Shown here in pieces: positions 18,297 through 36,453 of a stretch of DNA of 42,185 bases (position 1 is its first letter; each line of letters begins with the position of its first letter). The stretch is from Methanobacteriota archaeon. GTDB taxonomy: Archaea > JAADCQ01 > Methanopyri > Methanopyrales > Methanopyraceae. The stretch covers positions 1 to 42,185 of the forward strand of contig JAMOPO010000029.1 in NCBI GenBank assembly GCA_027064425.1, given 5' to 3'. The position numbers and the translations under genes are program-made. The notes under the pieces were generated by a model. It did not search any database and was not told where the DNA came from. It was given only the letters and a program-made list of their open reading frames with translations.

Positions 18297-18300
18297 GCCG

Positions 18301-19524
18301 ATGGCCGTTCAGATCGCCCAGCTCTCCTGCGGTACCGAGTACAGCGGGGTCCAGCCCGAGATCGAGCGCGCCGCCGAGCGCGTGGGCGCCGAGATCGTCT
18401 TCCCCGAGGTGGACCTGGACCTGATCGAGGAGGCGTGCGAGGAGATCGGGTACCGACCCAAGAGCGCGAACCTCCGCGTGCTCCTGGCCCGGGCGTACGC
18501 GCTCGCGGAGGGCTACGCCGAGGCGGACGCGGTGCTCATCCTCACCTGCTTCCGGTGCGCCGAGGGCGCGCTGGTTCGCAGCGAGGCCCGGCGCTACCTC
18601 CAGGAGCGGACCGACCTGCCCGTGGTCACGTACTCCTTCACCGAGGACCTCGACGCGGGCGAGCTGCTCACCCGGCTCGAGGCGCTGGTCACCATCGTGG
18701 AGCGGAAGGGCCTCCTCGCCCGGAAGCGCCAGGAGGGGCTCACGCTCGGGATCGACTCCGGCTCGACCACGACCAAGGCGGTGGTGATGGAGGACGACGA
18801 GGTCATCGGGACCGGCTGGGTTCGCACGACCAAGGTCGTCGAGTCCGCCGAGAAGGCCGTCGAGCGGGCCCTCGAGGAGGCCGGTTACGAGCTGGACGAC
18901 ATCGAGGCGATCGGCGTGACCGGGTACGGCCGCTTCACCCTCGGCAAGCACTTCGACGCCGACCTCGTACAGGAGGAGCTCACGGTCAACTCCAAGGGTA
19001 CCGTGTACCTGGGCGGCAAGCAGGAGGGCGGGGCCACGGTCATCGACGTGGGCGGGATGGACAACAAGGCGATCACCGTCTGGGACGGCATCCCGGACAA
19101 CTTCACCATGGGCGGCGTGTGCGCGGGAGCCTCCGGCCGCTTCCTCGAGGTGGCCGCCGACCGGATCGGGGTCGACCTCGAGGAGTTCGGAGAGCTCGCC
19201 GTGAAGGGTGACCCCGAGAACGTCCGCCTCGACAGCTACTGCATCGTGTTCGGGATCCAGGACCTCGTGACGGCGCTCGCCGAGGGCGCCGACCCGGAGG
19301 ACGCCGCGGCCGCCGCCTGCTACAGCGTCGCCGAGCAGCTCTACGAGCAGCAGCTTCAAGAGATCGACATCCGAGAGCCCGTGTTCTTCGTCGGAGGCGC
19401 CTCCCTGATCAAGGGCATGGTGAGGGCGCTGGAGGACGTGATCGGCGTCGAGGTGCGCGTACCGCCCCACTCCCAGTACATCGGCGCCGTCGGCGCCGCC
19501 CTCCTGGCCTCCAACTACGTGTAA
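18301..19524 (+). CDS. mmp15: Methanogenesis marker protein 15 (ASKHA/activator-type ATPase)
   Basis: [50 protein letters not shown]. Confidence 0.92.
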
Positions 19525-19527
19525 GGG

Positions 19528-20151
19528 GTGCCGCGCGTGTACGAGCACCGCGGCAGGCGCATCCTCGTCGCCGCCAGCGAGCCCGAGGCCGCCGAGCTCT
19601 ACTACGACATAGCCCGTCACGCCATGACCGACCTCGGCCTCGCCCGCACCGTCACCGCCGCCGTCTTCCACATCGACATCCAGGCCCCCATCTTCGCCGC
19701 CGCCGTCCGCACCCGACCCACCGTCAAGCCAATCACCCTCGGCCAGGTCGCCACCCTCGAGCACGACGAGGAGGAGAACACCCTGCGCGTCACCATCCGC
19801 GTCGAGCGGCACGCCCCCCGGACCCTCACCGCCCTCCAACGCGTCTTCGGCGAGGAGCGCGTGCACCAGGAGGAGCGCTTCGAGATCGAGGTCGACCTCC
19901 CCGAGGACTTCACCGAGGAGCACCTCGAACGCCTCCAGAGCCTCGTCGTCCACGACCCGCGGGAGCGCCTCACCCAGCGCGTGCACGACCTGATCGAGCG
20001 CGTCCGACCCGAGGGGTTCCGCGTCGCCCGCTACGCCCGCGTCGCCAACGATTACCTCTACGCCGCCACCGAGGGCCGGTTCCGAGAGGAGTGGTCGGAG
20101 CTGCTCATGGAGCTCCCGGGCGAGCTCGACCGCGTCGAAGGGGGCGAGTGA
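19528..20151 (+). CDS. mmp17: Methanogenesis marker protein 17
   Basis: Position after mmp15; RVRPEGFRV motif. Confidence 0.8.
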   Translation: MPRVYEHRGRRILVAASEPEAAELYYDIARHAMTDLGLARTVTAAVFHIDIQAPIFAAAVRTRPTVKPITLGQVATLEHDEEENTLRVTIRVERHAPRTLTALQRVFGEERVHQEERFEIEVDLPEDFTEEHLERLQSLVVHDPRERLTQRVHDLIERVRPEGFRVARYARVANDYLYAATEGRFREEWSELLMELPGELDRVEGGE

Positions 20152-21000
20152 GTGAAAGTTGACCACCCGTGCTACACCGGCGAGCACGCCAAGTTCGTGA
20201 AACTCCACCTGCCGATCGGCGGGCGCTGCAACATCCACTGCCGGTTCTGCGAGTCCGGGCTCGAGCACGAGGGACAGACCGCCGACTACCCCGGCCGCAC
20301 GGTACGGACCCTATCCCCCGAGGAGGTCGAGCGCCTCCTCCGCAACGCGCGCCGAGAGTGCGGCCGGATCGACGTGGTCGGCATCGCCGGGCCCGGCGAC
20401 CCCCTCGCCAACTGGGACGAGACGCGCACCGCCCTCGAGATCGCCGCCGAGACCGCCCCCGAGGCGAAGCGGTGCCTCTCCACCAACGGCGTCTGGCTCG
20501 AGCAGTACCTGCCCGAACTGCGCCGCCTCGTCCACGCCATCACGATCACCGTGAACACCCTCGACCCCGAGACCGCCGAGCGGATCTACGACCGGGCCGT
20601 CAACGAGGACGGCGAGACCCTCACCGGCCCCGAGGCCGCACGCTGGATCGTCGAGCGCCAGGAGCGAGCCCTCGACCTCCTCTCCGAGGAGCGCTACCTC
20701 CTCAAGAAGGTCAACTTCGTCCTCATCCCGGAGGTGAACGAGGACGACGTCGAGGAGGTCGCGAAGCGCGCCGCCGACGCCGGCTTCCACGCCATGAACG
20801 TCATCCCACTCCTCCCCGGCGGAGACCTCCGAGACCACCGACCACCCACCTGCCGAGAGCTCTCCCGCGCCCGCGACCGGGCCGAGCGCTACCTCCCCGT
20901 CATGCGCCGCTGCCGACAGTGCCGGGCCGACGTGCTGCACTGCCACGGCCGACCCCGGCTCATCTGGGAGCTGCTTGAGAAGGACGAGGGGGACGACTAG
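20152..21000 (+). CDS. nifB: NifB-like radical SAM protein
   Basis: HPC, CNIHCRFC, VVGIAGPGDPLAN, CLSTNG, C-terminal CRQCRAD. Confidence 0.85.
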   Translation: MKVDHPCYTGEHAKFVKLHLPIGGRCNIHCRFCESGLEHEGQTADYPGRTVRTLSPEEVERLLRNARRECGRIDVVGIAGPGDPLANWDETRTALEIAAETAPEAKRCLSTNGVWLEQYLPELRRLVHAITITVNTLDPETAERIYDRAVNEDGETLTGPEAARWIVERQERALDLLSEERYLLKKVNFVLIPEVNEDDVEEVAKRAADAGFHAMNVIPLLPGGDLRDHRPPTCRELSRARDRAERYLPVMRRCRQCRADVLHCHGRPRLIWELLEKDEGDD

Positions 21001-21896
21001 TGTACGAGACCGTGATCTACGAGGGCGGCGTGTACAAGGCCGACGAGATGCGCGAGCTGGTCGAGGACCTCGGCGGCTTCATCCTCCAGGAGCACAAGAT
21101 GCAGCTCGAGATCCACATGATCATGGCCGTCCCGATCGAGGACCTCGACGTCGTCGAGGAGAAGGCCGAGGAGCTCCTCGGCGAGATCAAGCGCGTCCCC
21201 CTCGCCGGCACCGAGATCGCCGTCGTCGGCATGAGCCTCGCCCGGCACCACATGCCCCACCCCGTCTGCGACATCGCCGAGTACCTCCGCCGCCACGGCG
21301 CCCGCACCAACGTCATCGGCCTCGCCCGCGGCTACGGGAGAGAGCTCGCCCAGCTGAGACCCCGAGAGAAGCGCCTGCTCGAGGAGCACGACCTCGTCGT
21401 CTTCGTCGTCGGCAACTTCCGAGACTGCATCGAGAAGTACAAGCTCCCGCTCATCCGACGCATCGAGCGCGTGCCCGTGGTCGTCGTCGGCGGGCCCGAG
21501 GAGATCGACGCCGACGACGTCACCTACATCGGCGGCGTCGGCCGCAAGCCCTACCGATTCCGCAAGGGCCGCGAGATCACCAAGCTCGACGAGATCGCCG
21601 ACACCGTCTCCAGGCTCATCGAGGAGCGCCGAAAGGAGCTCGCCGAGGACCCACCCGCCGTCCCACCCATGCTCGTGAAGGACCGCCTCACCCGAGAGCT
21701 GCCCCTCCGAGACCGAGACGTCGTCCTACAGCTCGACGGCGTCCGCGTCCACCGACCCTACCGGAAGTGGAGCGACCGCCTCGCCCGCGTCGAGATCCAC
21801 GACCGAAAACTCGAAGAAGTGGCCCGAATACGGCCCTCGGAGATCCGCGGTCACACCCTGATAAAGATAAAACCGAAGAGCGAGGTCGAGGTCTAG
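21000..21896 (+). CDS. mmp7: Methanogenesis marker protein 7
   Basis: YEGGVYK, EDLGG, HHMPHP.CDIAEYLR, IGLARG, GNF..CI. Confidence 0.9.
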   Translation: MYETVIYEGGVYKADEMRELVEDLGGFILQEHKMQLEIHMIMAVPIEDLDVVEEKAEELLGEIKRVPLAGTEIAVVGMSLARHHMPHPVCDIAEYLRRHGARTNVIGLARGYGRELAQLRPREKRLLEEHDLVVFVVGNFRDCIEKYKLPLIRRIERVPVVVVGGPEEIDADDVTYIGGVGRKPYRFRKGREITKLDEIADTVSRLIEERRKELAEDPPAVPPMLVKDRLTRELPLRDRDVVLQLDGVRVHRPYRKWSDRLARVEIHDRKLEEVARIRPSEIRGHTLIKIKPKSEVEV

Positions 21897-21965
21897 GACG
21901 ACCACGACGAGCGAAGGCAACCAGGTGAAGAGAGTGAGAATGAGGGGGAGGCGGGGGGCGGGGCC

Positions 21966-23288
21966 GTGGCGGGGGACAACCAGGCCCGGACCCGCGCACC
22001 CAAGGCGGGCATACACGACCGCCGCGTCCTGGTTATTGAAGTTTTCCCCGGCCTCACCCCGCCCAGGAGCCTCCTAAGGGACCTCAACCGCGAGGAGCGA
22101 AAGCTCCTCCTCGCCGCCGCCGGCCACCCCGACCTCCACTTCTGGGCCCGAAACACCATCGCCTACCTCTTCGACCACCCCACCCCCCTCCTCCTCGCCG
22201 CCGAACGACACGAGCGCATCCTCCCCACCGCCGTCCGCACCGTCGTCGAGCACCTGACCAACGACCCCAAGCGAGCCGACAAGGCCGCCCGGCTGGTACG
22301 AAAGGGCCACACCCCCCGCGAGGCCACCACCCACGCCGCCGGCCCCGACACCGCCCGCACCACCGCCCGAATCCTCGGCCGCACCCTGGGCTACATCCAG
22401 TCGGACCCGCTGACCATCGCCCTCACCCTCCAGGTCCTGGGCGTGCTGCTCACAGCACCGCACCGACTGCGACCGCTGACCCACATCCTCGTCGTGATCC
22501 CCGAGCTCAAGCACCTGAACATCCACCCGGAGCGCCTCGCCCGCCGCGTCTACTCCACCCTCTACCGCGCCCTCCGCACCCTCGACATCCCCCGCCACCT
22601 GACCCTCCGCGTCTACCTGAAGCGCGAGGACGGCCGCCTCGAGGACCCGCGCGGCGAGCCCACGGAGACCTTCCTGGTCGAGGCCTACGAGGAGCTCTTC
22701 CACCACCGACCGCACGCCGGCGGCAAGCACTTCCCGCCCCACGACCGCACCGCGCACGTCACCGCCTGGGCCCACGCCCTCGCCCGCGCCCTCACCGACC
22801 GCGTCCGCCGAGACCTACACCGGCGCGGGCTACGCGCCGCCCAGCGCGCCAAGCAACGCGGAGAGGACCCCAACGACGCCTACCAGCGAGAGCGCAACAA
22901 GTGGCTCAAACGCTGGTTCCGCCGCGGCCGAGCCTGGCTCAAGCACCACCGACCCGCCCCAACCCTCTCCCGACTCTCCGCCCACTTCGTCCTCCGGGAG
23001 GCCGGCACCGAGCTCCTGCACACCCCCGGATTCCTGGCCCGCGTGACGCGCACCACCCTCCGAACCCTGCTTCGAGCGGGGAACCTGACCCGGATCGGCG
23101 TCCGGCAGACGGTCCGACGCGTCGCCCGGAAGCTGGTCGAGAGGTTCCAACCCACCCCGGATCAGGCCAAGCACATCCTGAAGCTCCTGCGCCGAGCACG
23201 CCGCCGAGTGCTCGGTGACAGGACGCTGCTGGAGGCCTTTGGGACCCCATCGCGGCTCGAGGCGCTGGCCCGCAGCCCGCCCGGCTGA
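21966..23288 (+). CDS. Orphan, very basic (R/H/T/L-rich) hypothetical protein
   Basis: 440-codon ORF filling the gap, with the same C-ending codon bias as neighbouring genes; no family recognised, start uncertain. Confidence 0.6.
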   Translation: MAGDNQARTRAPKAGIHDRRVLVIEVFPGLTPPRSLLRDLNREERKLLLAAAGHPDLHFWARNTIAYLFDHPTPLLLAAERHERILPTAVRTVVEHLTNDPKRADKAARLVRKGHTPREATTHAAGPDTARTTARILGRTLGYIQSDPLTIALTLQVLGVLLTAPHRLRPLTHILVVIPELKHLNIHPERLARRVYSTLYRALRTLDIPRHLTLRVYLKREDGRLEDPRGEPTETFLVEAYEELFHHRPHAGGKHFPPHDRTAHVTAWAHALARALTDRVRRDLHRRGLRAAQRAKQRGEDPNDAYQRERNKWLKRWFRRGRAWLKHHRPAPTLSRLSAHFVLREAGTELLHTPGFLARVTRTTLRTLLRAGNLTRIGVRQTVRRVARKLVERFQPTPDQAKHILKLLRRARRRVLGDRTLLEAFGTPSRLEALARSPPG

Positions 23289-23340
23289 GTTGAAACCACG
23301 GGCGCAAGCCGCGCGACCCGGGGTGGGACCGGGGCCGCAG

Positions 23341-23662
23341 ATCGTTAAGAAGTTCGAAACAATGTGACACACGCTTGTCGTGCCGTTAAGAACGCACCCA
23401 GGGCGCTCAGAAAAGTGTTTTTCCTGAAGCTAACGAGACCACAAAACACAACCCTAAGCGCTGCCTTCATCGCGCTAATACCCGGCTAACCAAATAGATA
23501 ACCAAATAACCTGGTATTTGGACCAATATCTAACTTGAACCGAGCTTAAGTGATGACAGGCTGAAGCCGGTTGTCAGCCTTGATTCATGCGTTCTTTAAC
23601 CCGGGCGCGTCCCCCGGCGGGGCTGTGATCGGTTGGTTCCGGTTCGCTCGACCGTTGTTTCG
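23341..23662. other. AT-rich symmetric intergenic region; candidate replication origin
   Basis: Longest AT-enriched noncoding stretch in the window, with nested inverted repeats, sitting at a C-rich to G-rich strand switch. Confidence 0.55.
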
Positions 23663-23734
23663 GGATCGCGCGGCGGCTGGGTGAAGCTTCTTATCCCGCG
23701 GTCCGGTGGGGGAGACGGCCGGGGCGGGTTCGCC

Positions 23735-24607
23735 GTGCGGGTGGCCGCGTTCGCGGCGGAGTTTTACTCGCGGCTGCCGGAGGGCGTGTTCCGTGAGTTC
23801 GTGCGGGAGCCGGAGCGGCGGGAGTGGGCGTTCACGGTGGAGCGGGGTGGCGACCTGGTCTTCGTGCGGAAGCGTCGGTGGGACGAGGTGGAGGGGTTCG
23901 TGGAGCTGTACCACTCGGTGGGTCGGTTCGAGGAGCCGACGAGGTGGGAGGGGTTGACGGGCTGGGATTTGGTGCTGGACGTGGACGCGGAGCTGCCGGA
24001 GGATGCGGAGGGGTTCTTGCGGGAGCTGGGGGAGCTGTTGAGGGGTGTGGTTCGGGTGTGTGAGGAGCTGCGTCGGGTGGTGGGTCTGCCGGCGCCGGAC
24101 GTGATCAACTTCTCGGGGTCGAAGGGGTTTCATGTGCGGTACTTCTTTGAGTCGATTAGGAACAGGTTGAGGTGGGGGGAGCACTTGGGGAGGGGGTTGG
24201 ACGTGGAGGAGCTGGTTAGGGGGTTGGGTCGTGGGTTGGTCTGGTTGGCGGAGGAGGGGTTCATTGGTGGTGGGGTGGGTGAGCTGTTGGATGAGTCGAT
24301 GTACGAGTTGAAGCGGTTGATTCGGTGTGTGGGTTCTTTGAACGCTAAGTCGTTGTTGCCGGCGGTGCCGGTGTGGTGTAAGTGGGAGGGTTCGTGGCGG
24401 GAGTTCAGGGAGAGGGTGTTGGATGGGAGTGGGTTGGAGGTGGGTTGTTGGGTGGTTCGGAGGGTGTTGACGTGGCCGGGTGGTGGGTTGGTGGAGGTGT
24501 TGGATCGGGTGCTGGGGTTGGAGGTGGATGTCGGTGTGCGGGGGTTGGAGGAGTTCGTGGGTGTGTGGGAGGAGGTTCAGGAGGCGTTGGGGGAGATGAA
24601 GGGGTGA
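23735..24607 (+). CDS. priS: DNA primase small subunit
   Basis: REWAF, Y.S...E.P, WDLVLDVDA, FSGSKGFHV, RLIR..GSLN.KS.L. Confidence 0.9.
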   Translation: MRVAAFAAEFYSRLPEGVFREFVREPERREWAFTVERGGDLVFVRKRRWDEVEGFVELYHSVGRFEEPTRWEGLTGWDLVLDVDAELPEDAEGFLRELGELLRGVVRVCEELRRVVGLPAPDVINFSGSKGFHVRYFFESIRNRLRWGEHLGRGLDVEELVRGLGRGLVWLAEEGFIGGGVGELLDESMYELKRLIRCVGSLNAKSLLPAVPVWCKWEGSWREFRERVLDGSGLEVGCWVVRRVLTWPGGGLVEVLDRVLGLEVDVGVRGLEEFVGVWEEVQEALGEMKG

Positions 24608-25179
24608 GGTTCGTGGTCCCGTTCGCGGATCGGGGTGAGCGGAAGACGCGGTTGTCTTCGTGCATGGATGAGCGGACGCGGGAGGAGTTCGCGCTGGCGA
24701 TGTTGCGGCACGTGGTGCGGGTGCTCTCGGGGTTCGGTGAGGTGGAGGTGGTGACGCCGGACGAGGAGTTGTCGGTGCCGGGGGCGTCGGTGCGGTGCAG
24801 TGAGGCGGGGTTGAACGAGCTGCCGCTGCCGGTGGGGGAGCGGTTCGGGGTGGTGGTGTCGGATCTGCCGTTGCTGTCGGAGGAGGATGTGGAGCGGGCG
24901 TTGGAGGCGTTGGAGGGGGCGGACGTGGTGCTGTGTCCGGCGCGGCGAGGTGGTACGTCGGGGGTGTTCGTGCGGGAGGGGGTGCGGTTCCGGCCGGTGT
25001 TCGGTGGGGTGAGCTTTCCGAGGAACTTGGAGCGGGCTCGTGGGCGTGGGTTGGAGGTGCGGGTGGTGCGGTCGTTGGGGTTCTTTGCGGACGTGGACGT
25101 GCCGGAGGATCTAGTGGACGTGGCGCTCTTGGGTGAGGGTGAGGTGGCGCGGTTGGCGCGGTCGGTTGTGTCCGTGTGA
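24604..25179 (+). CDS. cofC: 2-phospho-L-lactate/PEP guanylyltransferase (F420 synthesis)
   Basis: VPF....KTRLS, AML..V, SDLPLL, P.R.GGT, DVDVPEDL. Confidence 0.92.
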   Translation: MRFVVPFADRGERKTRLSSCMDERTREEFALAMLRHVVRVLSGFGEVEVVTPDEELSVPGASVRCSEAGLNELPLPVGERFGVVVSDLPLLSEEDVERALEALEGADVVLCPARRGGTSGVFVREGVRFRPVFGGVSFPRNLERARGRGLEVRVVRSLGFFADVDVPEDLVDVALLGEGEVARLARSVVSV

Positions 25180-25238
25180 GTTCGACGCTCGGGGTGGGGG
25201 GCTCGGCTGAAAGGTCGGGTGTCGGGTCGGCGTAGGGG

Positions 25239-26327: not shown

Positions 26328-26330
26328 GGG

Positions 26331-27626: not shown

Positions 27627-27632
27627 TGCGGC

Positions 27633-28238
27633 ATGTTCGAGCGGCTGGTGTACGTGGACCTGATCTCAAGGAGTCACGCGGAGTTCGCGAAGCGCGCGAT
27701 CCGGAGGCTGTCTCCGCGGGTGGAGGTGGAGGTTAGGTGCCTCTCTCGGTTCGAGCGGGAGGATGAGGCGCTCACGTACGATGGTCGGCTGCGGGACGAG
27801 TCGGCGTGGGAGCGGTTCCTGGAGGTGCTGGAGGAGGCGGAGGAGGACTGGGTGGTCGCGTCGGTGGTGAACGTGCCGCCGGAGGTGCGGGAGGTGGACT
27901 CGGACGCGACGGTGGTGTTGGGGGTGAACACGGGGGATCATCGGAGGACGCTGGAGGCGGCGCGGTTGGCGGACGTGTTGGTGGTGGGTCGTCGGCTGTA
28001 CTCGCCGTCGACGGGGCCTCGGGAGTTCGGTCGGGTGGGTTCCGGGGTGCTGAAGGACGGGACGCTGGTGGTGGACGTGGAGGATCTGGACCTGATGTAC
28101 GCGAGCGAGGGGGTCCCGGTGGTCGCGGTCGTGGTGGCGGAGCGCGGGGTGGAGGGGCTGCGGATGGATCTGCGGGCGGGTCGGTTGAAGCCGCTGGCGG
28201 AGGAGGCGCTGGAGGGGCTCTCGCTCTCGCGGGTGTGA
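27633..28238 (+). CDS. Hypothetical protein
   Basis: ATG-start ORF closely packed in the operon, typical acidic composition. Confidence 0.75.
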   Translation: MFERLVYVDLISRSHAEFAKRAIRRLSPRVEVEVRCLSRFEREDEALTYDGRLRDESAWERFLEVLEEAEEDWVVASVVNVPPEVREVDSDATVVLGVNTGDHRRTLEAARLADVLVVGRRLYSPSTGPREFGRVGSGVLKDGTLVVDVEDLDLMYASEGVPVVAVVVAERGVEGLRMDLRAGRLKPLAEEALEGLSLSRV

Positions 28239-28244
28239 GCGGTC

Positions 28245-29147
28245 GTGGAGGAGTTCCGGTGGCGGCCTGAAGGGTTCGAGTGCGTGCTCTCGCACTTCGA
28301 GGCGGAGCGGCTGCTGGAGGCGGTTGAGTCGGGGGAGGACCGGGTTCGGGTCCCGCTGGATCTGGGTCGGGAGGAGGGCTCGGTCTCGGTGGAGGGAGAT
28401 GGGGTTCGGGTGCGCGGGGTGTGGGTGTCTCGGGAGGAGCTGGAGCGGATGGTGGAGTGGGAGGGGGCGTACGGGCTCTCGAAGGAGGGCGTCTTCCGGC
28501 TGGAGATTCGGGCGGAGCATTACTACAAGCTGCTGCCCGTGAGGCCGGGCGAGGCGCCGACGGTGGAGATCGATGGGATTCGGATGCATCGGACGAAGTG
28601 GACGGACCCGTGGACGGACGCGGGCGTGAAGGTGCGGTACGCGCGGGTGGGTGCGGGGGATCGGGTGCTGGACGTGTGCACGGGGTTGGGCTACACGGCG
28701 ATCCGGGCGGTGGAGCGCGGGGCTGAGGTGGTCTCGGTGGAGAAGGATCTGAACGTGCTCCGGCTCAGCCGGGCTAACCCGTGGTCGGAGGGGTTGCGGG
28801 AGGTTCGGGTGTTGGTTGGGCGGGCGGAGGAGGTGGTGCCGGAGTTTGGGCGCTGCGAGTTCGACGCGGTGGTGCACGATCCGCCCCGGATGGCGCGGGC
28901 GGGTGAGCTGTACTCGCGGGAGTTTTACCGGGAGCTGCTCCGGGTGATGGCGCCGGGCGCGCGGCTGGTGCACTACGTGGGGGCGCCGGGGAGCCGGTAT
29001 CGGGGTAAAGACATAATCAGGGGCGTGGCGAGGCGGCTCGCGGAGGTGGGGTTCGAGGTGGTGCGGGTGGACCGGAAGTGGGGGCTCGTCATCGCTGAGA
29101 GACCCAGCGGCGGAGGGCGGGCTCGGGGACGAAGATCCCGCCCTTGA
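28245..29147 (+). CDS. Archaeal SAM-dependent methyltransferase (COG2521-like)
   Basis: PTVEIDGIRMH, VLDVCTGLGYTA, NPWS, HDPPR...GELYS. Confidence 0.9.
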   Translation: MEEFRWRPEGFECVLSHFEAERLLEAVESGEDRVRVPLDLGREEGSVSVEGDGVRVRGVWVSREELERMVEWEGAYGLSKEGVFRLEIRAEHYYKLLPVRPGEAPTVEIDGIRMHRTKWTDPWTDAGVKVRYARVGAGDRVLDVCTGLGYTAIRAVERGAEVVSVEKDLNVLRLSRANPWSEGLREVRVLVGRAEEVVPEFGRCEFDAVVHDPPRMARAGELYSREFYRELLRVMAPGARLVHYVGAPGSRYRGKDIIRGVARRLAEVGFEVVRVDRKWGLVIAERPSGGGRARGRRSRP

Positions 29148-29553
29148 GCTCGGCGACGGCGGCGGAGGTCTCTCGGAGGCCGGCGTGGAAGAGGTGGGAC
29201 TCGCAGTCGCAGTCGGAGCAGCCGAACCCGGGGACGCCGGGAGCGCGGCGGGAGAGGGACCTCGCCAGCTCGCACTCGGCGTCGTAGGGCAGGAGCCAGG
29301 CGCCCTTGATCCTCGGTCTCGTGGCGTCGAGCAGGTGGTCGATGTGCCAGTGTGGGTTCTCGGCGCCGCGCTCGGCGGTGCTGAGGTGCCGGCGCAGTCG
29401 GCCGCGCAGGTCGGTGGAGCCCCTCCCCTGGCCCGAGCCGACGTACGTCCAGTCCCCGGGCTCGAACTCCAGGGTCCCGAGGCTCCCGATCCGGACCCGG
29501 TGGCGCTCGTCCAGGTGGAAGATGAGCGCGTACGTCCCGGTGGAGGGTAGCAA
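29089..29553 (-). CDS. DUF123 GIY-YIG (Uri) nuclease-like protein
   Basis: GTY.L, IGSLG, YVGSG, R..RH, HWHID.L, GFGCSDC.C.SHL; TTG start chosen. Confidence 0.85.
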   Translation of the reverse strand: MLPSTGTYALIFHLDERHRVRIGSLGTLEFEPGDWTYVGSGQGRGSTDLRGRLRRHLSTAERGAENPHWHIDHLLDATRPRIKGAWLLPYDAECELARSLSRRAPGVPGFGCSDCDCESHLFHAGLRETSAAVAELKGGIFVPEPALRRWVSQR

Positions 29554-29566
29554 GGGGGGAGGCCCC

Positions 29567-31921
29567 CTGAGGAGGGCCGCGCTGGTTGGAGCGGTCATCG
29601 TGCTGGGGGCGGTCGCGGCGAACGCGGCGAACCTGAGTCATCCGCTGCTGAGCCGGGACTCGAGGGCTCACGTGCTCAAGATCTGGTACACGCGCGAGAT
29701 GCTCGCTCACGGCAGGTGGGACGCGTGGTGTCCGGAGTGGTACTCGGGCTTCCCGTACCTGACGTACTACGGCTCGCTGGGGTACCTGATCGGGGCGTGC
29801 GTGGACGCGGTGGTTGGCAGCCCGGTCCTCTCGTTCCTGGTCTGCCTGATCCTGGCCTCCGCTCTGGTGGGGTGGGGCGTCTACTGGGTGGTGCGGGCCC
29901 GCGGGTTTGAGCGCTGGGTCGCGGTGATCTGCGCGCTGTTGGCGCTCACCTCGGGCGGGCTGATGAAGGCCCTGAACTGGGAGGGCGTGTACCCCACGGT
30001 GCTGGCCCTGGGCTTCGGGATGCTCGCGCTGGGTACCTACGAGCGGTGGCTGCGCGGCGGGGATCGGCGCCGGCTGGCGCTCAGCACCGCGCTCCTGGTT
30101 CCGGCCTTCTACACGCACCCGCTGGGCGGGCTGCTCTCGGGCGGGTTGGTCCTCACGCGCGGGATCTTTGAGGTGGTGATGGACGCGTCCCGGCGCGAGC
30201 TGCGGTTCCTGGCGCTCTCGGTGGCGCCGGTCGTGATCGCGGGGTTGATCGCGCTCCCGCACTACGCGGCGGCGTTCTACTACAAGCGGTTCCTCTCGGA
30301 GCTTTGGCTGTACCCGCCCGGCTCGGTCGCGGGCTTGATCAAGGACCTGGCGGTGGGCGGGAAGTGGTCGCCCGGGCTGCTGGTGACCGTGCTGGGGCTG
30401 TCCGGGGTGATCCTGGGCCTGCGCCGCCGGGATCCGATCGCGCCGTTCACGCTGTTCTGGCTCGCCGTCTCGATCCTGGTGTGTTTCGCGTACGTGCTCG
30501 GGTACTGGTCGAAGATCCCGCTGGGTAGGAACATGCTGGCGGAGCGGTACACGACGGTCCTGCTGCCGCTGCTGCTGTCGGTCGCGGCCGCCCCGGTCGT
30601 GCGCTCGCTCGTCCGGACCCGGTGGGCGGTGGTGGGCGCCGGCGCGTTCCTGATCGGGCTGGGCGGCGTGGGGGCGCTCACTTACACCCCGCCGCTGCCG
30701 CCCAAGCTGTACCCGAGCGCGCTGGAGACGTGGCGGTGGGTGGGGGGCGAGTGGGGCGGTCGCTCGGCCCTGGAGCGCTGCGACGCGGACCCGTACACGC
30801 ACCTGTTCGACGCGTCGGTCCCGATCTCACCGATGTACTCGGGTCATCCCACGATCATGGGCTGGTTCTCGCAGGGTGACCCGATGTTCTTCTCCCTGGC
30901 GGCCCGGTGGGAGTGGGAGCTGGGCTGGGTGTACGATCCGAACTTCGTGAAGACGTCGCTCTGGGCGACGAACACCCGGTTCCTGGTCACGAAGTCGAGG
31001 CTGGTGGCGAAGCGGCTGATGCGCGAGCCGGACTTCGTCTACCGGGCGAAGTTCGGCCGGTTCCGGGTGTTCGAGTACCCGGGGCACGGTGGTCCCGCGG
31101 CGGTCGTCCCGCACCCGATCGGCGTGGTGGACCCGTGGCTGGGGTTGAGGACGGAGAACGCGTACTACACTACCCTGCTGAACTTCGTCGCGACGCCGGG
31201 CCGACGGTACGTGTTCGCGGACGTGACCTGGAAGGGGGCGCCGGCGTTCGACCGGCTGATCGTGCGGCCGAAGCGGGCGGAGGACGTGCGGAGGGCGGTG
31301 GAGCTGGCCCGGTCGGGTCGGAGGGTGCTGCTGATTCTCCCGGAGCGGTGCCCGAGGCCGGTGCTCGAGGCGGTGGAGCGGTCGCTCGGGGTGGACTTGG
31401 AGCGCTCTCGCCCGCCGTCGTTCGTGCCCTCGAGGCGGTTCTTGGTGGCGGTGTACCGGGTGGACGGGAGGTGGTTCAAGGACGTGCGCGCGGGCAGGGG
31501 GAAGGTGCGGGTCTGCGGGGTGGACCTGGTCCGGTTCGCGATGCGGTTCCACCGGCTGATCAAGGAGGTCCAGACGAAGGGGTACCGGATGCCGAGGCTG
31601 CCGACGGACCGGGAGCGGAGGTTCGTGAACGCGGTGCTGAAGGGGTTCGATTCGGGCGAGCCGAGGCCGGCGTGGGCTGCGTTCGTGGGCGGCCCGGAGC
31701 GGCTGAGGGTGCGGGGCTCGGGGTGGGTGTTCGTCAAGGTGAAGTACTTCCCGGCGTGGCGGTCGGGCTCGGGCCCGGTGCTGCCGGCCTCGTGCGGTCA
31801 GATGCTGGTCAAGGTGCCGGGGGAGGGGGAGCTCAGGTACGAGCTGCCGGCGGTGGTCTCGGTGTACCCGTACGCGGCGGCGGTGGTCGGCATCGTGGCG
31901 CTGGGGGCGCTGGCGCTGTGA
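29567..31921 (+). CDS. Large polytopic membrane protein (PTPS-related/GT-C glycosyltransferase-like)
   Basis: D...H, W...WYSGFP...YY motif, about ten TM helices, large soluble domain and C-terminal anchor; start uncertain. Confidence 0.75.
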   Translation: MRRAALVGAVIVLGAVAANAANLSHPLLSRDSRAHVLKIWYTREMLAHGRWDAWCPEWYSGFPYLTYYGSLGYLIGACVDAVVGSPVLSFLVCLILASALVGWGVYWVVRARGFERWVAVICALLALTSGGLMKALNWEGVYPTVLALGFGMLALGTYERWLRGGDRRRLALSTALLVPAFYTHPLGGLLSGGLVLTRGIFEVVMDASRRELRFLALSVAPVVIAGLIALPHYAAAFYYKRFLSELWLYPPGSVAGLIKDLAVGGKWSPGLLVTVLGLSGVILGLRRRDPIAPFTLFWLAVSILVCFAYVLGYWSKIPLGRNMLAERYTTVLLPLLLSVAAAPVVRSLVRTRWAVVGAGAFLIGLGGVGALTYTPPLPPKLYPSALETWRWVGGEWGGRSALERCDADPYTHLFDASVPISPMYSGHPTIMGWFSQGDPMFFSLAARWEWELGWVYDPNFVKTSLWATNTRFLVTKSRLVAKRLMREPDFVYRAKFGRFRVFEYPGHGGPAAVVPHPIGVVDPWLGLRTENAYYTTLLNFVATPGRRYVFADVTWKGAPAFDRLIVRPKRAEDVRRAVELARSGRRVLLILPERCPRPVLEAVERSLGVDLERSRPPSFVPSRRFLVAVYRVDGRWFKDVRAGRGKVRVCGVDLVRFAMRFHRLIKEVQTKGYRMPRLPTDRERRFVNAVLKGFDSGEPRPAWAAFVGGPERLRVRGSGWVFVKVKYFPAWRSGSGPVLPASCGQMLVKVPGEGELRYELPAVVSVYPYAAAVVGIVALGALAL

Positions 31922-32403
31922 GGGTGGTCAGGGTCGTCCTGGCGGTGTTAGCGGGGCTGTACGGGGTGGGCTGGGCGTCGACGGTGGTGAACTGGAGCGT
32001 GCCGCACGAGATCGTGCGGTCGAGCCCGGGGGTTTACCAGTCGACGGGTGCCACGGTGCAGGCGACGATCAACCCGTACCGGGGGAAGATCACGCTCTCG
32101 GTGGCGTACGATCCGGCGGTGATCGTGAAGCTGCCGTACCGGGGTAAGGCGGAGCGGGTCTCGGCGTCGGAGCTGCGGTTAGGCTCGGTCCGGGTGCGGG
32201 CGCTGGGGGACGCGCTGGAGATTCGGGGGCCGTGCTCGGTGCGCCCGTACGTGACGACGAGGACGGGCGAGGTGTACACCGTGGAGCTGGCGCGGCTGGG
32301 GGGTGGGTTCGTGGGGCTGAACCGGAGCGGGTACCTGGTGATCGTCACCCGGAGCGGTGCGGTCACGACGGTGCGGGTGCTGCCGCTCATTCCGTTGATC
32401 TAG
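31918..32403 (+). CDS. Hypothetical exported protein
   Basis: GTG start overlaps the upstream stop; signal-peptide-like N-terminus, beta-rich body. Confidence 0.65.
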   Translation: MRVVRVVLAVLAGLYGVGWASTVVNWSVPHEIVRSSPGVYQSTGATVQATINPYRGKITLSVAYDPAVIVKLPYRGKAERVSASELRLGSVRVRALGDALEIRGPCSVRPYVTTRTGEVYTVELARLGGGFVGLNRSGYLVIVTRSGAVTTVRVLPLIPLI

Positions 32404-32415
32404 GGGCGCGGGATC

Positions 32416-33426
32416 GTGCCTAGGCTGCCCTACGTGGCGGTGCCGAAGCGGGAGGCGGAGCGGGCGCGTCGGGCGCTGGCGCGGGAGTCGCTGCTGGTGC
32501 GGGACGTGAGGGTGCGGCGGGAGGGGGATCGGGTCCTCTTCCCGGTGGAGGACGCGGAGGAGGCGGCGCGGGTGCTGGAGCGGGAGGAGGTCCCGTTCGA
32601 GCTGGGTGAGGGCGAGTTCGAGTCGGTCTCGGGCCCGAGGAGCGTGGAGGAGGTGCTGAGGGAGCGGCTGGGCGTGTCCTGCTCGGTCCCGTACGATGTG
32701 GTGGGCGACGTGGCGGTGGTGCAGATCCCGGAGGAGCTGGAGGGGTACGAGGAGGAGGTCGGCCGGGCGATCATGGAGGTGCACAAGCGGGTGCGGGCGG
32801 TCTTCGAGCGGGGTCCGGTGCGCGGCGTCTTCCGGGTCCGGGAGCTGCGGAGGATCGCGGGTGAGGGGCCGCCGGTGACGGAGCACCGAGAGCACGGGTG
32901 CCGGTTCCGGGTGGATCTGTCCCGGTGCTACTTCAACCCGAGGCTGGCGACGGAGCGGCGCCTGCTGGCGGACGAGGTGGTGGAGGAGGGGGCCCGGGTG
33001 CTGGACATGTTCGCGGGCGTGGGCCCGATCACGGTGATCCTGAAGCGGTTCGTGCCGGGCGTGCGGGTGGTGGCGTGCGAGCTGAACCCGGTCGCGTACC
33101 GGTACCTGCTGGAGAACCTGAGGCTGAACCGGGTGTCGGCGCGGGCCTTCCTGGGCGATGCGGGGGAGGTGGTGCGGCTGCTCGGGCGGTTCGACTACGT
33201 GATCATGAACGCGCCGAAGTTCGCGCACCGGTTCCTGCGGGCGGCGGCGCGGGTCGTGCGGCCGGGCGGGCGGGTCGTGTACTACCGGATCGCGGGGTCG
33301 GTGGAGGAGGCGTTCGAGGAGGTGCGGGAGCGGCTGGGGGGCGGGGTGGAGCTGGAGTCGTGGCGGGAGGTGAAGCCGTACTCGCCGGAGGAGTCGCTGT
33401 TCCGGCTGGTGGTGCGGGTGCCTTAG
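32416..33426 (+). CDS. trm5: Trm5/Tyw2-family tRNA methyltransferase
   Basis: YDVVGDVA, G.FR.R, HREHG, YFNPRL..ER, DMFAGVGP, ELNP.A. Confidence 0.85.
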   Translation: MPRLPYVAVPKREAERARRALARESLLVRDVRVRREGDRVLFPVEDAEEAARVLEREEVPFELGEGEFESVSGPRSVEEVLRERLGVSCSVPYDVVGDVAVVQIPEELEGYEEEVGRAIMEVHKRVRAVFERGPVRGVFRVRELRRIAGEGPPVTEHREHGCRFRVDLSRCYFNPRLATERRLLADEVVEEGARVLDMFAGVGPITVILKRFVPGVRVVACELNPVAYRYLLENLRLNRVSARAFLGDAGEVVRLLGRFDYVIMNAPKFAHRFLRAAARVVRPGGRVVYYRIAGSVEEAFEEVRERLGGGVELESWREVKPYSPEESLFRLVVRVP

Positions 33427-33893
33427 CCCAGGCGCTTGCGGAGCTCGTGAAGGAGGATGGCGACGGCGCCGATCTCGCCGATGTTACCCTCGGTGGCGAT
33501 GTACACGGCCCGGTCGCCGAGCTCCAGCTCGCGCTTGCTGAGGCCGGGTCGGGCGCTGCCGAAGACGAACCAGACGTCCTTGCCCTGCTCGATGAGCTCG
33601 GCGACCTCGTCGAAGTCGAGGGGCTCGGCGCCGCCGTGCTCCCTGTCCTCGGCCATGAAGGTCACGTCGGGCTCGAGCGCCTCGAGGGCCTCCTCCAGGT
33701 CCTGGAAGAAGTGGAGCTCGGTGTCGCGCTCGAGGCAGAGGCGCTGGGCAGCGGGGACGCCCTCCTGGGCGGCGCTGCCGAGGGCGCGGGTGATAACGAG
33801 TCGTCGGGCGCCGAGGCCGGTCACGGTGCGGGCCATCTCCTCGACCTTTCGCGGGCTGTGCACGTTATGGTAAACCACGGTCACAGGAATCAC
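33423..33893 (-). CDS. SPOUT-family RNA methyltransferase-like protein (COG4080-like)
   Basis: HNV.S, GSAAQ.GVP, DL.EA.E.L.PD, FG....GLS..EL..G. Confidence 0.75.
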   Translation of the reverse strand: MIPVTVVYHNVHSPRKVEEMARTVTGLGARRLVITRALGSAAQEGVPAAQRLCLERDTELHFFQDLEEALEALEPDVTFMAEDREHGGAEPLDFDEVAELIEQGKDVWFVFGSARPGLSKRELELGDRAVYIATEGNIGEIGAVAILLHELRKRLG

Positions 33894-33945
33894 ACGGAAA
33901 CCCCCTTAGCCTGGGCGCTCAGCCCCGCTATGGGGGGCTTGGGCC

Positions 33946-34908
33946 TTGAGCGTGCGGACCCTGGCGTTGGTGGCGATCGCGGTCGTGGCGGCGATCGGTG
34001 GCGCGCTCGGGTATTATTATTACCAGCAGCGGGCGAACGTGGTCCGGATCGGGTACCAGCCCAGTGACCACCACACGGCGCTGTTCGTGGCGATGGAAAA
34101 GAAGATGCTCGAGAAAGAGGGTCTGAAGGTCGAGGTCTACGAGTTCAAGGCGGGTCCGCCGGAGACGCAGGCGCTGGCGGCGGGTAAGATCGACGTGGCG
34201 TACATCGGTTGCGTGCCGGCGATCACGGCGTACTGTAAGGGCGTGCCGATCAAGATCGTGGCGGGCGTGAACCAGGAGGGTTCGGCGATCGTCGTGCGGA
34301 AGGACGAGGCGGGCAAGGTCCACAGTCTGAAGGACCTGAAGGGCAAGCGCGTGGCGGAGCTGATGAAGGGTTCCATCCAGGACTGCATGCTGCGGACCGC
34401 GCTGCAGCGGGAGGGGCTGAACCCGGACAAGGACGTGGATATCGTGGAGATGAAGACGGCGGACGCGGTGAACGCGTTGGGCGCGAAGCGGATCGACGCG
34501 TTCATCGAGCCGGAGCCGGGTCCGACGCTGGCGGAGAAGAAGGGCTTCGGCGTCCGCCTGATGGACACGGGGCAGATCTGGCCGGGTCACCAGTGCTGCG
34601 TGCTGGTCATGCGGAAGGACTTCATCGAGCGGCACCCGGACCTGGCGAAGAAGGTCCTGCGGGCGCACGTGATGGCGACGCGGTACGTCATTGAGCACCC
34701 GGACGAGGCGGCGAGGATCGCGGCGAAGTGGCTGAAGACGTCCCCGGACGTGGAGAAGGAGGCGATGCGGCACATCAAGTTCACCGTGGACGTGAACGTG
34801 GACAGCGTGAAGATGTTCGCCCGGTTCCTGAAGCGGTTAGGGTACATCAAGCGGGAGCCGGACTGGTCCGACTTTATCGACCTGAAGCTACTCCGGCAGC
34901 TGGCCTAG
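33946..34908 (+). CDS. NitT/TauT ABC transporter substrate-binding protein
   Basis: N-terminal anchor, RIGYQPSDH, GKID.AY.G, DLKGK, HQCC. Confidence 0.92.
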   Translation: MSVRTLALVAIAVVAAIGGALGYYYYQQRANVVRIGYQPSDHHTALFVAMEKKMLEKEGLKVEVYEFKAGPPETQALAAGKIDVAYIGCVPAITAYCKGVPIKIVAGVNQEGSAIVVRKDEAGKVHSLKDLKGKRVAELMKGSIQDCMLRTALQREGLNPDKDVDIVEMKTADAVNALGAKRIDAFIEPEPGPTLAEKKGFGVRLMDTGQIWPGHQCCVLVMRKDFIERHPDLAKKVLRAHVMATRYVIEHPDEAARIAAKWLKTSPDVEKEAMRHIKFTVDVNVDSVKMFARFLKRLGYIKREPDWSDFIDLKLLRQLA

Positions 34909-34918
34909 GGGGTGCGCG

Positions 34919-36408: not shown

Positions 36409-36453
36409 GGAGAAGAGGGTTAGCCGAGCTGTGACGAGCGTTTGCCGGCCCGA
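36402..36453 (+). ncRNA. Box C/D sRNA, probable 23S H68/H69 guide
   Basis: C CCGATGA, D' CCGA, C' GTGACGA, D CCGA. Guides are complementary to TAACCCTCTT and GCCGG(C/T)AAACG. Confidence 0.8.

What the first reader, a model, noticed from the sequence alone, without database searches (positions are those of the whole stretch)
19500..34900. Abrupt strand-composition switch that ignores gene orientation
Seen: the genes on both sides of ~23.3-23.6 kb are on the + strand, yet the left ones use C-ending codons and the right ones use G/T-ending codons. Hand counts: 22141-22200 has 33 C and 8 G; 24421-24480 has 4 C and 35 G. The bias is strongest at the junction and fades with distance. Known: leading strands are usually G/T-rich, so a C-to-G flip on the + strand marks an origin. 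The bias is strong enough to shape the proteins (H/T/P-rich to the left, V/G/W/E-rich to the right).
Basis: partly seen in the sequence, partly recalled or inferred. Interest (0 to 1): 0.85.

Follow-up and report, generated by a model that had tools for sequence, protein, structure and literature searches.

The report
Extreme local strand-bias flip beside primase gene
In an uncultured heat-loving methane-making archaeon, the DNA composition of the two strands swaps abruptly at one short spacer beside a primase gene, the pattern expected where DNA copying starts, in a group whose replication start sites are unknown.

Summary
The hand counts are exact. GC skew at 4-fold sites runs from -0.5/-0.7 (four + strand genes, 19.5-23.3 kb) to +0.85/+0.95 just right of a 344-bp AT-rich spacer. 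This is the largest upward jump of 13,153 positions tested in the 1.54-Mb genome. All three codon positions and amino-acid content shift, and minus-strand genes follow the strand, not their own orientation.

It is not a rearrangement breakpoint. Gene order is the same in two closed genomes of the genus, which show almost no flip. Three metagenome lineages and G004 show it at the same junction.

It is not unique, and it does not behave like a classical chromosome-wide origin:
- Contigs ordered on a closed relative give a sawtooth of C-to-G jumps 18-28 kb apart: at the 16S gene, this spacer, a DUF1678 gene, the 23S gene and another DUF1678 gene.
- One more strong jump lies about 680 kb away.
- There is no chromosome-scale skew.

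Best reading (about 0.5): a fixed site from which DNA synthesis starts in both directions, with heat-driven damage of the displaced strand. Divergent transcription or R-loops is the main rival. No direct replication or RNA data could be obtained.

The parts
1..121 (-). 5' end of the 16S rRNA gene, which runs off the contig. A further C-to-G jump is centred on this gene.
   Evidence: Rfam SSU_rRNA_archaea positions 1-113. The 3' end of the 16S gene lies at the end of contig C57, whose last genes are C-rich on the + strand.
127..4793 (.). G-rich block upstream of the 16S gene. It includes a minus-strand DUF483 gene (996-1610) that is C-rich in its own sense.
   Evidence: The 1-kb skew is +0.16 to +0.41. 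Plus-strand GC3 skew is +0.57 (minus-strand gene), +0.58, +0.32, +0.24.
17844..21896 (+). Tightly packed methanogenesis-marker gene cluster: DUF2112, BcrAD-like, DUF2113, radical SAM, McrC-like. The bias builds up inside it towards the junction.
   Evidence: 4-fold GC skew is +0.01, -0.28, -0.71, -0.55, -0.71, with gene gaps of 4, 3, 0 and -1 bases.
21966..23288 (+). 440-aa protein found only in Methanopyrus. It is H/T/P-rich here and is the last gene of the C/A-rich block.
   Evidence: The search found 7 proteins (E <= 0.001), the query itself among them. The named ones are Methanopyrus hypothetical proteins, plus one unnamed JGI sequence. There is no Pfam hit and no PDB fold match at E <= 0.001. 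4-fold skew is -0.54/-0.57.
23289..23632 (.). AT-rich spacer in which the strand bias flips.
   Evidence: G 91, C 95, A 90, T 68. The cumulative G-C minimum is at 23,541 and the keto minimum at 23,511. The 200-bp window at 23401 has 45.5% G+C, the 6th lowest distinct locus of 30,603 windows. Independent contigs from two studies bridge 22178-23805 and 22178-23824.
23340..23363 (.). Conserved spacer block, GATCGTTAAGAAGTTCGAAACAAT.
   Evidence: Nearly identical in L100 and recognisable in G001 and G002 in the spacer alignment.
23487..23521 (.). Two direct copies of TAACCAAATA followed by an inverted TATTTGG, next to the skew minimum.
   Evidence: One search shows the repeats. The 10-mer occurs only here in G000 (2 copies) and only at the orthologous spacer in G002 (1 copy at 544,980). 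The same repeat architecture with a changed word is present in L100.
23633..24607 (+). Divergent small-subunit primase (PriS-like) gene, the first gene of the G/T-rich block. The true start may be later than 23633.
   Evidence: NCBIfam PriS scores 25.8 bits, E 4.9e-6, far below its cut-off. Invariant DVDAE and NFSGSKGFHVRY stretches are seen in 4 orthologues. That these are the primase catalytic motifs is recalled, not tested. Pfam PF01896 finds nothing in the genome.
23633..34908 (.). G/T-rich block: ten + strand core genes and two minus-strand genes (32034-32390, 33423-33893). All are G-rich on the + strand.
   Evidence: 4-fold skew is +0.95 declining to +0.57; the minus-strand genes are +0.30 and +0.60 on the + strand. 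Internal spacers are G-rich: 32 against 11, 71 against 49, 56 against 24.
33946..36408 (+). ABC-transporter gene cluster (binding protein, permease, ATPase) inside which the bias reverses gradually from G-rich to C-rich.
   Evidence: 4-fold skew is +0.58, +0.10, -0.28. It is the second largest downward jump in the genome, -0.36 at 35,000.
36341..38683 (+). Second C-rich block, made of + strand genes (Dus-like, tRNA, TrkA-type channel).
   Evidence: 4-fold skew is -0.55 and -0.72. The tRNA lies at 37301-37387.
38684..39615 (+). Spacer plus DUF1678 gene (39022-39615) at a weaker upward jump.
   Evidence: Pfam DUF1678, E 1.4e-46. The jump is +0.22, the 95th percentile genome-wide. A GATTACAAA box lies upstream, as at other copies.

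Best explanation
The spacer at 23.29-23.63 kb is a fixed site from which DNA is repeatedly unwound and copied outwards in both directions. That makes it an origin-like initiation site. On each side, the parental strand that runs 5'-to-3' away from the site is left single-stranded for longest. In an organism living near 100 C that strand loses C and A by deamination. Over time it becomes G/T-rich: the + strand to the right, the minus strand to the left.

The effect is strong enough to change third, first and second codon positions and therefore the proteins. It fades over 4-11 kb. Two causes are possible. Most synthesis from the site may be short-range or abortive, or exposure may last longest next to the start, as in the strand-displacement gradient of vertebrate mitochondrial DNA.

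What is shown: the compositional pattern, its polarity, its independence of gene orientation, its position at a conserved spacer, and its recurrence in related lineages.

What is inferred: that DNA synthesis starts there, that deamination of single-stranded DNA is the mutational cause, and why the bias is local.

What is not resolved: whether this is a bona fide chromosomal origin or one of several sites of frequent local initiation (R-loop-primed or recombination-dependent).
For: Polarity and size:
- The polarity and the joint GC and AT (keto) skew are those of a bidirectional start. Left: GC skew down to -0.32, AT skew about +0.2 to +0.3. Right: GC skew +0.58, AT skew -0.38. AT3 skew is +0.76 on the left and -0.82 on the right.
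- It is the largest upward jump of 13,153 positions.
- Upward jumps are sharp. This one occurs within a 344-bp spacer. Downward changes are gradual, about 3 kb inside one transporter gene cluster.

The bias follows the strand, not gene orientation:
- Four + strand genes on the left are C-rich in sense.
- Two minus-strand genes in the right block are C-rich in sense.
- The bias grows inside a tightly packed gene cluster towards the junction.

It is mutational, not codon choice:
- GC skew at position 1 is +0.01 (left), +0.25 (genome baseline) and +0.38 (right). At position 2 it is -0.01, -0.02 and +0.18.
- Amino-acid content is shifted.

It is tied to the locus, not to a rearrangement:
- Gene order is conserved in G001 and G002.
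- The flip recurs at the same junction in L100 (-0.55 to +0.66), L102 (-0.37 to +0.34) and L101/G004 (about -0.1/-0.2 to +0.43).

Features of the spacer and its setting:
- The spacer is among the most AT-rich places in the genome.
- It carries a repeat found nowhere else in G000 or G002.
- It sits next to the primase gene.
- In both closed relatives it lies between the 16S and 23S genes, which point away from it.

Argument against transcription level as the cause:
- Highly expressed mRNA genes show no G-rich sense bias. The mcr operon has sense GC3 skew of -0.30 to -0.02 and EF1-alpha -0.06.
Against: - No chromosome-scale skew goes with it. The large contigs are flat.
- In closed G002 the junction ranks 89th of 1,369 boundaries. 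The orientation-corrected cumulative GC3 skew has a weak maximum, not a minimum, at 537-554 kb. The published skew index for Methanopyrus kandleri AV19 is 0.023, which the paper classes as no visible skew (PMC2684130, Table 2 passage).
- If forks left this site and travelled far, the bias should persist. It ends after 4-11 kb.
- There are at least five other jumps, four of them within about 90 kb at 18-28 kb spacing. That would be an unprecedented density of origins.
- Two jumps are centred on rRNA genes, the most transcribed DNA in the cell. This points to transcription or R-loops.
- Genes left of the junction face it, so they would be head-on to a leftward fork.
- Polarised substitutions since the split from L100 are few and ambiguous. 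On the G000 branch in the right block, G>C is 17 against C>G 2, which suggests the bias is not currently growing in this lineage.
- No recognised initiator gene is adjacent. Cdc6_C is not found above its cut-off in 3 of 3 Methanopyrus genomes searched.
Confidence: 0.5

Rival explanations
1. Transcription-associated asymmetry. Very strong divergent, largely non-coding transcription starts at each jump and forms R-loops. These expose the non-template strand on both sides. Read-through fades with distance, which gives sharp starts and gradual ends.
For: - Two jumps are centred on the 16S and 23S genes.
- Downstream of the 23S gene the co-oriented genes decline +0.77, +0.59, +0.44, as read-through would.
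- The C-rich + strand genes downstream of the 16S gene lie antisense to rRNA read-through.
- Genome-wide, a weak G-rich sense bias follows orientation (mean +0.06 to +0.07).
- M. kandleri is reported to lack the transcript-cleavage factor TFS (PMC2643942 passage). That could favour stalled polymerase and R-loops; this link is inference.
- Sharp-up, gradual-down shapes fit promoters and leaky termination equally well.
Against: - It needs antisense transcription that outweighs sense transcription over about 5 kb of conserved methanogenesis genes (18.3-23.3 kb), over 36.3-38.7 kb, and over the co-oriented genes just upstream of both rRNA genes (996-1610 here; C45:1780-2954).
- The mcr operon and EF1-alpha show no G-rich sense bias.
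- No known RNA family lies in the spacer, even at E <= 1.
- There is no reason to expect the primase-CofC-PurP genes to be transcribed at rRNA-like levels.
- rRNA operons of three other closed archaeal genomes show flank skews only within about +/-0.26.
Confidence: 0.25
2. Mosaic left by rearrangement. Inversions or transfers juxtaposed segments that acquired opposite skews elsewhere, so the junction is a breakpoint.
For: - Block-like domains with both upward and downward changes.
- The literature describes M. kandleri as rearrangement-prone (PMC2643942 passage).
Against: - Gene order and orientation from 5 to 38 kb are the same in G001 and G002.
- All genes are core genes with orthologues of 46-92% identity.
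- The orthologues in G002 have 4-fold skew near 0, so the bias arose in place.
- There is no genome-wide replichore skew from which blocks could have been cut.
- The same flip occurs in L100 with the same gene order.
Confidence: 0.03
3. Gene-level codon preference, with C-ending or G-ending codons chosen for translation, that happens to differ between neighbouring gene groups.
For: - Third positions carry the largest effect.
- The mcr operon leans slightly towards C-ending codons.
Against: - First and second codon positions and amino-acid content shift in the same direction.
- A/T third positions shift in the complementary way: A3 exceeds T3 on the left, T3 exceeds A3 on the right.
- Spacers inside the right block are G-rich.
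- Minus-strand genes carry the complementary bias.
- The bias changes gradually inside gene clusters.
Confidence: 0.02

Closest known systems
GC-skew polarity switch at bacterial and some archaeal replication origins. The Pyrococcus oriC prediction by skew is recalled; it is listed only in the references of PMC2684130.
   Same: C-to-G and A-to-T switch on one strand at an AT-rich intergenic region next to a replication gene, with rRNA genes pointing away.
   Different: Here the bias is local (4-11 kb) rather than replichore-wide, and far stronger (4-fold skew up to 0.95). It repeats at several nearby sites, and there is no Orc1/Cdc6 gene or chromosome-scale skew.
Strand-displacement gradient of vertebrate mitochondrial DNA (PMC3269012; passages read).
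   Same: G/T enrichment of the strand left single-stranded. It is attributed to C and A deamination, is graded with exposure time and is extreme at 4-fold sites.
   Different: This is a cellular chromosome. The pattern is bidirectional from one point and spans only about 15 kb. Replication by strand displacement is not known for archaeal chromosomes.
Sawtooth 'N-domains' and upward skew jumps at mammalian replication origins
   Same: Sharp upward jumps, gradual declines through zero to negative values, and independence from gene orientation.
   Different: The scale is about 20 kb instead of about 1 Mb, the amplitude is an order of magnitude larger, and the pattern is confined to a small part of the genome.
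Transcription-associated skew and R-loop-prone GC-skewed promoters. Local skew from RNA synthesis is mentioned in a PMC2684130 passage.
   Same: Local, polar, G/T-rich non-template strand; association with rRNA genes at two of the jumps.
   Different: The bias runs against the orientation of many genes and is absent from the most expressed mRNA genes.

Membership tests
Chromosomal replication origin (archaeal oriC) | Local switch of strand composition with leading-strand polarity | tested here: met
   Cumulative G-C minimum at 23,541 and keto minimum at 23,511. Largest upward jump of 13,153 positions.
Chromosomal replication origin (archaeal oriC) | Chromosome-scale extremum of cumulative skew at the site | tested here: not met
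   In closed relative G002 the junction ranks 89th of 1,369, and the corrected cumulative GC3 skew has a weak maximum at 537-554 kb. The large G000 contigs are flat. G000 itself is not closed, so the test is indirect.
Chromosomal replication origin (archaeal oriC) | Adjacent Orc1/Cdc6 initiator gene and origin-recognition-box repeats | tested here: not met
   Cdc6_C is above its cut-off in 0 of 3 Methanopyrus genomes, while the control rings in 4 of 14 genomes. The literature reports the absence of Cdc6/Orc1 in Methanopyrales (PMC3914693 and PMC2643942 passages). The spacer has its own unique repeats, whose binding protein is unknown.
Chromosomal replication origin (archaeal oriC) | AT-rich unwinding region | tested here: met
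   45.5% G+C over 200 bp in a 68% G+C genome; 6th lowest distinct locus.
Chromosomal replication origin (archaeal oriC) | Initiation shown by copy-number gradient or nascent strands | not testable with these tools
   Only assembled contigs of DNA runs were available. There were no raw reads and no RNA runs.
Transcription-associated strand asymmetry | Bias follows gene orientation (sense strand G/T-rich) | tested here: not met
   Four + strand genes on the left, two + strand genes at 36.3-38.7 kb and two minus-strand genes in the right block are C-rich in sense.
Transcription-associated strand asymmetry | Bias scales with expression | tested here: inconclusive
   The mcr operon and EF1-alpha show none, but two jumps sit on rRNA genes. 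No expression data were available.
Rearrangement breakpoint between differently skewed segments | Break of synteny at the junction | tested here: not met
   Collinear with G001 and G002 across the junction.
Mitochondrial-type strand-displacement gradient | G/T enrichment of one strand that declines monotonically from the start site | tested here: inconclusive
   The right side declines from 0.95 to 0.57 with a dip to 0.43 and 0.30. The left side is a plateau.

The most novel reading that the evidence does not exclude
In Methanopyrus, an order with no recognisable Orc1/Cdc6 and no mapped origin, DNA synthesis starts at a handful of fixed sites. These are the primase-upstream spacer, both rRNA genes and several DUF1678 loci. 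Initiation may be R-loop-primed or recombination-dependent and often short-range. At about 100 C the displaced strand deaminates so fast that each site writes a mitochondrial-style gradient into chromosomal core genes and their proteins. If so, the skew map gives the first candidate initiation sites, and candidate cis-elements and neighbouring proteins, for this order.
Probability: 0.3. Interest if true: 0.88.

Novelty: new variant of a known kind. Interest (0 to 1): 0.75.

Why it matters
Methanopyrales and Methanococcales are the archaea in which no Orc1/Cdc6 initiator has been found (PMC3914693 and PMC2643942 passages). Origin prediction for Methanopyrus strains has been inconclusive (PMC5504354 passage).

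This locus offers a precise and testable candidate: a spacer of about 340 bp with a unique conserved repeat, next to the primase gene and between the two outward-facing rRNA genes.

Independently of the mechanism, a 4-fold-site GC skew of -0.7 to +0.95 over a few kilobases of core chromosomal genes is of mitochondrial magnitude. It is strong enough to change amino-acid composition. That matters for three things:
- models of mutation at extreme temperature;
- gene finding, since my codon-model gene caller miscalled strands in the skewed block of L100;
- phylogenetics of these fast-evolving proteins.

Tried and rejected
- Marker frequency and expression: the run search listed 5 DNA runs from 2 studies, all kept as assembled contigs, and no RNA holder. 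Laying 4 of them gave no usable depth profile. The dip in summed contig depth at 22.7-23.3 kb reflects how many related contigs match, not copy number.
- Strain differences from the same call are strand-asymmetric (C>T 274-308 places against G>A 124-139). Only 40 of about 1,458 places were listed, so they could not be split by block.
- Polarised substitutions (G000 against L100, with G001 = G002 as outgroup): 126 changes in all, with a saturated outgroup. The primase gene was lost from this analysis because I gave a wrong frame. No firm spectrum resulted.
- The 'right block' figures included that mis-framed gene and are superseded.
- The 440-aa protein: the AlphaFold model was mediocre (pLDDT 62), with 0 PDB matches at E <= 0.001. 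A weak profile hit to one DUF1678 sequence vanished in the profile-profile comparison (probability 0.7%).
- The DUF1678 model (pLDDT 73) also had 0 PDB matches at E <= 0.001.
- Shared motif between the two strongest junctions: none. TAACCAAATA is unique to this spacer.
- Rfam found nothing in the spacer or at the C15 junction.
- The bacterial-type promoter scan found nothing and is not suited to archaea.
- A sub-threshold Cdc6_C hit in G002 is a small winged-helix ORF of a multi-copy family. It has no syntenic copy in G000 and was dropped.
Supplementary files of papers were not consulted. Supplementary tables of PMC3914693 and PMC5504354 might list predicted origins or initiator candidates that I could not see.
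- Not in print as far as searched: four full-text searches found no description of local strand-bias flips in Methanopyrus.

Full report
**What the window is.** The window is contig C29 of a 1.54-Mb, 57-contig, 68% G+C archaeal genome (G000). Pfam shows methanogen core genes. The 16S rRNA 5' end lies at 1-121 on the minus strand. The genome belongs to the same GTDB genus as two closed genomes, G001 (1,421,621 bp) and G002 (1,694,969 bp). Homologues of a window protein are named Methanopyrus by NCBI, one of them on a contig of 1,694,969 bp. Both closed relatives have about 60% G+C.

**Check of the observation.** The two hand counts are exact.
- The 1-kb GC skew goes from -0.32 to +0.58 across the junction, with AT skew changing in the complementary sense.
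- Genome-wide, 1-kb skew has sd 0.13, and 0.17% of 2,965 windows exceed |0.5|.
- With 3-kb flanks, the jump at 23.6 kb (+0.64; sd of all jumps 0.122) is the largest of 13,153 positions. The next is C15:345.4 kb (+0.52). The largest downward jumps are -0.40 and -0.36.
- The local cumulative G-C minimum is at 23,541 and the keto minimum at 23,511, inside the spacer.
- Genes on both sides are on the + strand, by Pfam domains and by a 440-aa ORF conserved over its whole length in the genus.
- At 4-fold sites aligned to G002 orthologues, GC skew on the left is -0.73, -0.51, -0.70, -0.57. On the right it is +0.85, +0.95, +0.90, +0.79, +0.78, +0.69, +0.43, +0.30, +0.73, +0.60, +0.57. It then falls to +0.04, -0.53 and -0.73.
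- C falls to 2-6% of 4-fold sites just right of the spacer.

**Strand, not gene orientation, and mutation, not codon choice.**
- The minus-strand genes 32034-32390 and 33423-33893 are G-rich on the + strand (+0.30, +0.60).
- Elsewhere in the genome a weak bias follows orientation: mean sense GC3 skew is +0.06 to +0.07. For neighbouring genes, the correlation of plus-strand skew is r 0.50 on the same strand and r 0.06 on opposite strands.
- All codon positions move. Position-1 GC skew is +0.01 (left), +0.25 (baseline) and +0.38 (right). Position 2 is -0.01, -0.02 and +0.18. Position 3 is -0.41, +0.06 and +0.60. AT3 skew is +0.76 (left) and -0.82 (right).
- Against G002 orthologues, H+T+P+Q+N rises from 0.139 to 0.206 on the left and falls from 0.133 to 0.093 on the right. 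G+V+W+F+C rises from 0.268 to 0.324 on the right. Control genes barely change.
- The bias also changes gradually inside tightly packed gene clusters. Towards the junction it runs +0.01, -0.28, -0.71, -0.55, -0.71. Across an ABC-transporter cluster at the far end of the G-rich block it runs +0.58, +0.10, -0.28.

**Not a breakpoint, not an assembly artefact, lineage-dependent.**
- Gene order from 5 to 38 kb is collinear with G001 and G002. The one difference is a DUF1678 gene that those two carry between the McrC-like and 440-aa genes.
- The two junction-flanking proteins are the most diverged, at 46% and 57% identity.
- G001 and G002 show almost no flip. Raw skew is about +0.1 on the left and +0.2 on the right. 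4-fold skew is near 0, except the primase gene at +0.28 and CofC at +0.56.
- In G002 the junction ranks 89th of 1,369 gene boundaries.
- Uncultured relatives do show the flip at the same junction: L100 (primase 84% identical) -0.55 to +0.66, L102 -0.37 to +0.34, L101/G004 about -0.1/-0.2 to +0.43.
- Contigs independently assembled from runs of two studies bridge the junction.

**The spacer.** It is 344 bp long. A 200-bp stretch at 45.5% G+C is the 6th lowest distinct locus in the genome. It has two features:
- a block conserved in L100 and recognisable in G001 and G002;
- two TAACCAAATA copies plus an inverted TATTTGG beside the skew minimum.

The 10-mer occurs nowhere else in G000 and only at the orthologous spacer in G002. 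L100 keeps the architecture with a changed word.

The right-hand gene is a divergent PriS-like primase. Pfam's primase model finds nothing in the genome.

**The flip is not alone.** The other strongly skewed contig ends abut rRNA genes:
- C57 ends in the 16S 3' part and is C-rich.
- C29 begins with the 16S 5' part and is G-rich for 4.8 kb.
- C45 begins with the 23S 5' part and is G-rich throughout.
- C26 begins with the 23S 3' end and declines +0.77, +0.59, +0.44.

I ordered G000 genes on G002. In G002 the 16S gene is at 516.8-518.3 kb (minus strand), the 23S gene at 585.3-588.4 kb (plus strand), and the junction at about 545 kb. This gives a sawtooth with C-to-G jumps at:
- about 517 kb (16S);
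- 545 kb (this spacer);
- about 566 kb (window about 39 kb, DUF1678 gene);
- about 587 kb (23S);
- about 605 kb (DUF1678 gene on C26).

The spacing is 18-28 kb. A sixth jump, C15:344.5-345.8 kb, maps to about 1,221 kb in G002. It has convergent neighbours and a DUF1678 ORF in its spacer.

Eight testable DUF1678 loci have a mean jump of +0.17 (resampling P about 0.0003). The test is post hoc and is driven partly by one locus.

rRNA operons of three other closed archaeal genomes show no comparable flank bias. In G002 it is weak.

**Chromosome scale.** The large G000 contigs are flat. G002 has no V-shaped cumulative skew. After correcting for orientation, its GC3 curve has a weak maximum at 537-554 kb. 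Published work gives Methanopyrus kandleri AV19 a GC-skew index of 0.023, below the paper's 0.05 threshold for visible skew (PMC2684130).

**Interpretation.** The signature is G and T enriched on the strand that runs 5'-to-3' away from a point, on both sides. It is what deamination of a strand left single-stranded gives. This is well described for lagging-strand templates and for the displaced strand of mitochondrial DNA (PMC3269012 passages).

A fixed bidirectional start of DNA synthesis explains all blocks with one rule, whatever the gene orientation. It also fits the AT-rich unique-repeat spacer, the neighbouring primase gene and the outward-facing rRNA genes.

It does not by itself explain why the bias ends after 4-11 kb, or why such sites are so dense. 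That requires short-range or abortive synthesis, or unusually long exposure next to the start. Both are inferences.

The main rival is strong divergent transcription with R-loops. It is suggested by the two rRNA-centred jumps and would give the same shapes. However, it needs dominant antisense transcription over several conserved gene clusters, and the most expressed mRNA genes carry no such bias.

Rearrangement and codon selection are contradicted by the data.

Cdc6_C is not found above its cut-off in 3 of 3 Methanopyrus genomes. This agrees with reports that Methanopyrales lack Orc1/Cdc6 and that origin prediction in Methanopyrus strains was inconclusive.

**Limits.**
- No replication or expression data could be had.
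- G000 is not closed, and the contig order is inferred from a relative.
- My gene calls come from a home-made codon model that misassigns strands in heavily skewed DNA. For that reason the key genes were checked by Pfam and orthology.
- The polarised substitution counts are small.

Noticed in passing
window 39022-39615; G000 C15:344750-345307, C15:117286-117810, C57:1142-1699, C26:11290-11844 and others: DUF1678 is a Methanopyrus-only multi-copy family. Family matches (some loci give two fragments): 10 in G000, 19 in G002, 2 in G001, 3 in G004. A GATTACAAA box lies about 50 bp upstream of several copies. Copies tend to sit at upward skew jumps: mean +0.17 over 8 loci, P about 0.0003, post hoc. 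The AlphaFold model (pLDDT 73) has no PDB match.
   Followed up: partly
G000 C15:344491-345802 (L010 9493-10802): Second largest C-to-G jump in the genome. Its neighbours converge on it (a TPP enzyme gene and an unknown minus-strand gene). A DUF1678 ORF lies in the spacer, along with motifs that look by eye like C/D-box sRNAs. Rfam finds nothing. The locus maps to about 1,221 kb in G002, with synteny conserved.
   Followed up: partly
G002 16S 516776-518289 (-), 23S 585271-588370 (+); G001 784718-786230 (-), 850137-853234 (+): The 16S and 23S rRNA genes are unlinked, about 65-67 kb apart, and point away from each other, with the primase spacer between them. In G000 both genes break the assembly.
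   Followed up: partly
window 23633-24607: The only primase small-subunit candidate is so divergent that Pfam PF01896 finds nothing in the whole genome. NCBIfam PriS scores 25.8 bits against a cut-off of 326. The annotated start may be too far upstream compared with G001 and G002.
   Followed up: partly
G002 542479-543222 (-), G001 810216-884 (-): Both closed relatives carry a DUF1678 gene between the McrC-like gene and the 440-aa gene, 1.3 kb left of the orthologous spacer. G000 has none there, and my gene calls find none in L100.
   Followed up: no
L102 1-16257 (metagenome relative): A more distant lineage (61% G+C) shows skew blocks alternating every 3-6 kb: +0.40, -0.37, +0.34, -0.57, +0.20. 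The phenomenon may therefore be denser in some lineages.
   Followed up: no
G002 1072764-1073159 (-) (L068 12764-13159): A small, lysine-rich winged-helix ORF of 131 aa with a sub-threshold Cdc6_C hit (17.5 bits). It sits in the gap that is G002's second largest upward skew jump. It belongs to a multi-copy family and has no syntenic copy in G000.
   Followed up: partly
window 17000-36000: The metagenomes hold several co-occurring relatives of this population, with contigs at 99% or more, 95-99%, 90-95% and under 90% identity. Their differences from the window are strand-asymmetric overall (C>T about twice G>A).
   Followed up: no
window 35497-36408: An ABC-transporter ATPase ORF was missed by my codon-model gene caller. 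It overlaps the permease gene and lies in the zone where the bias reverses.
   Followed up: yes
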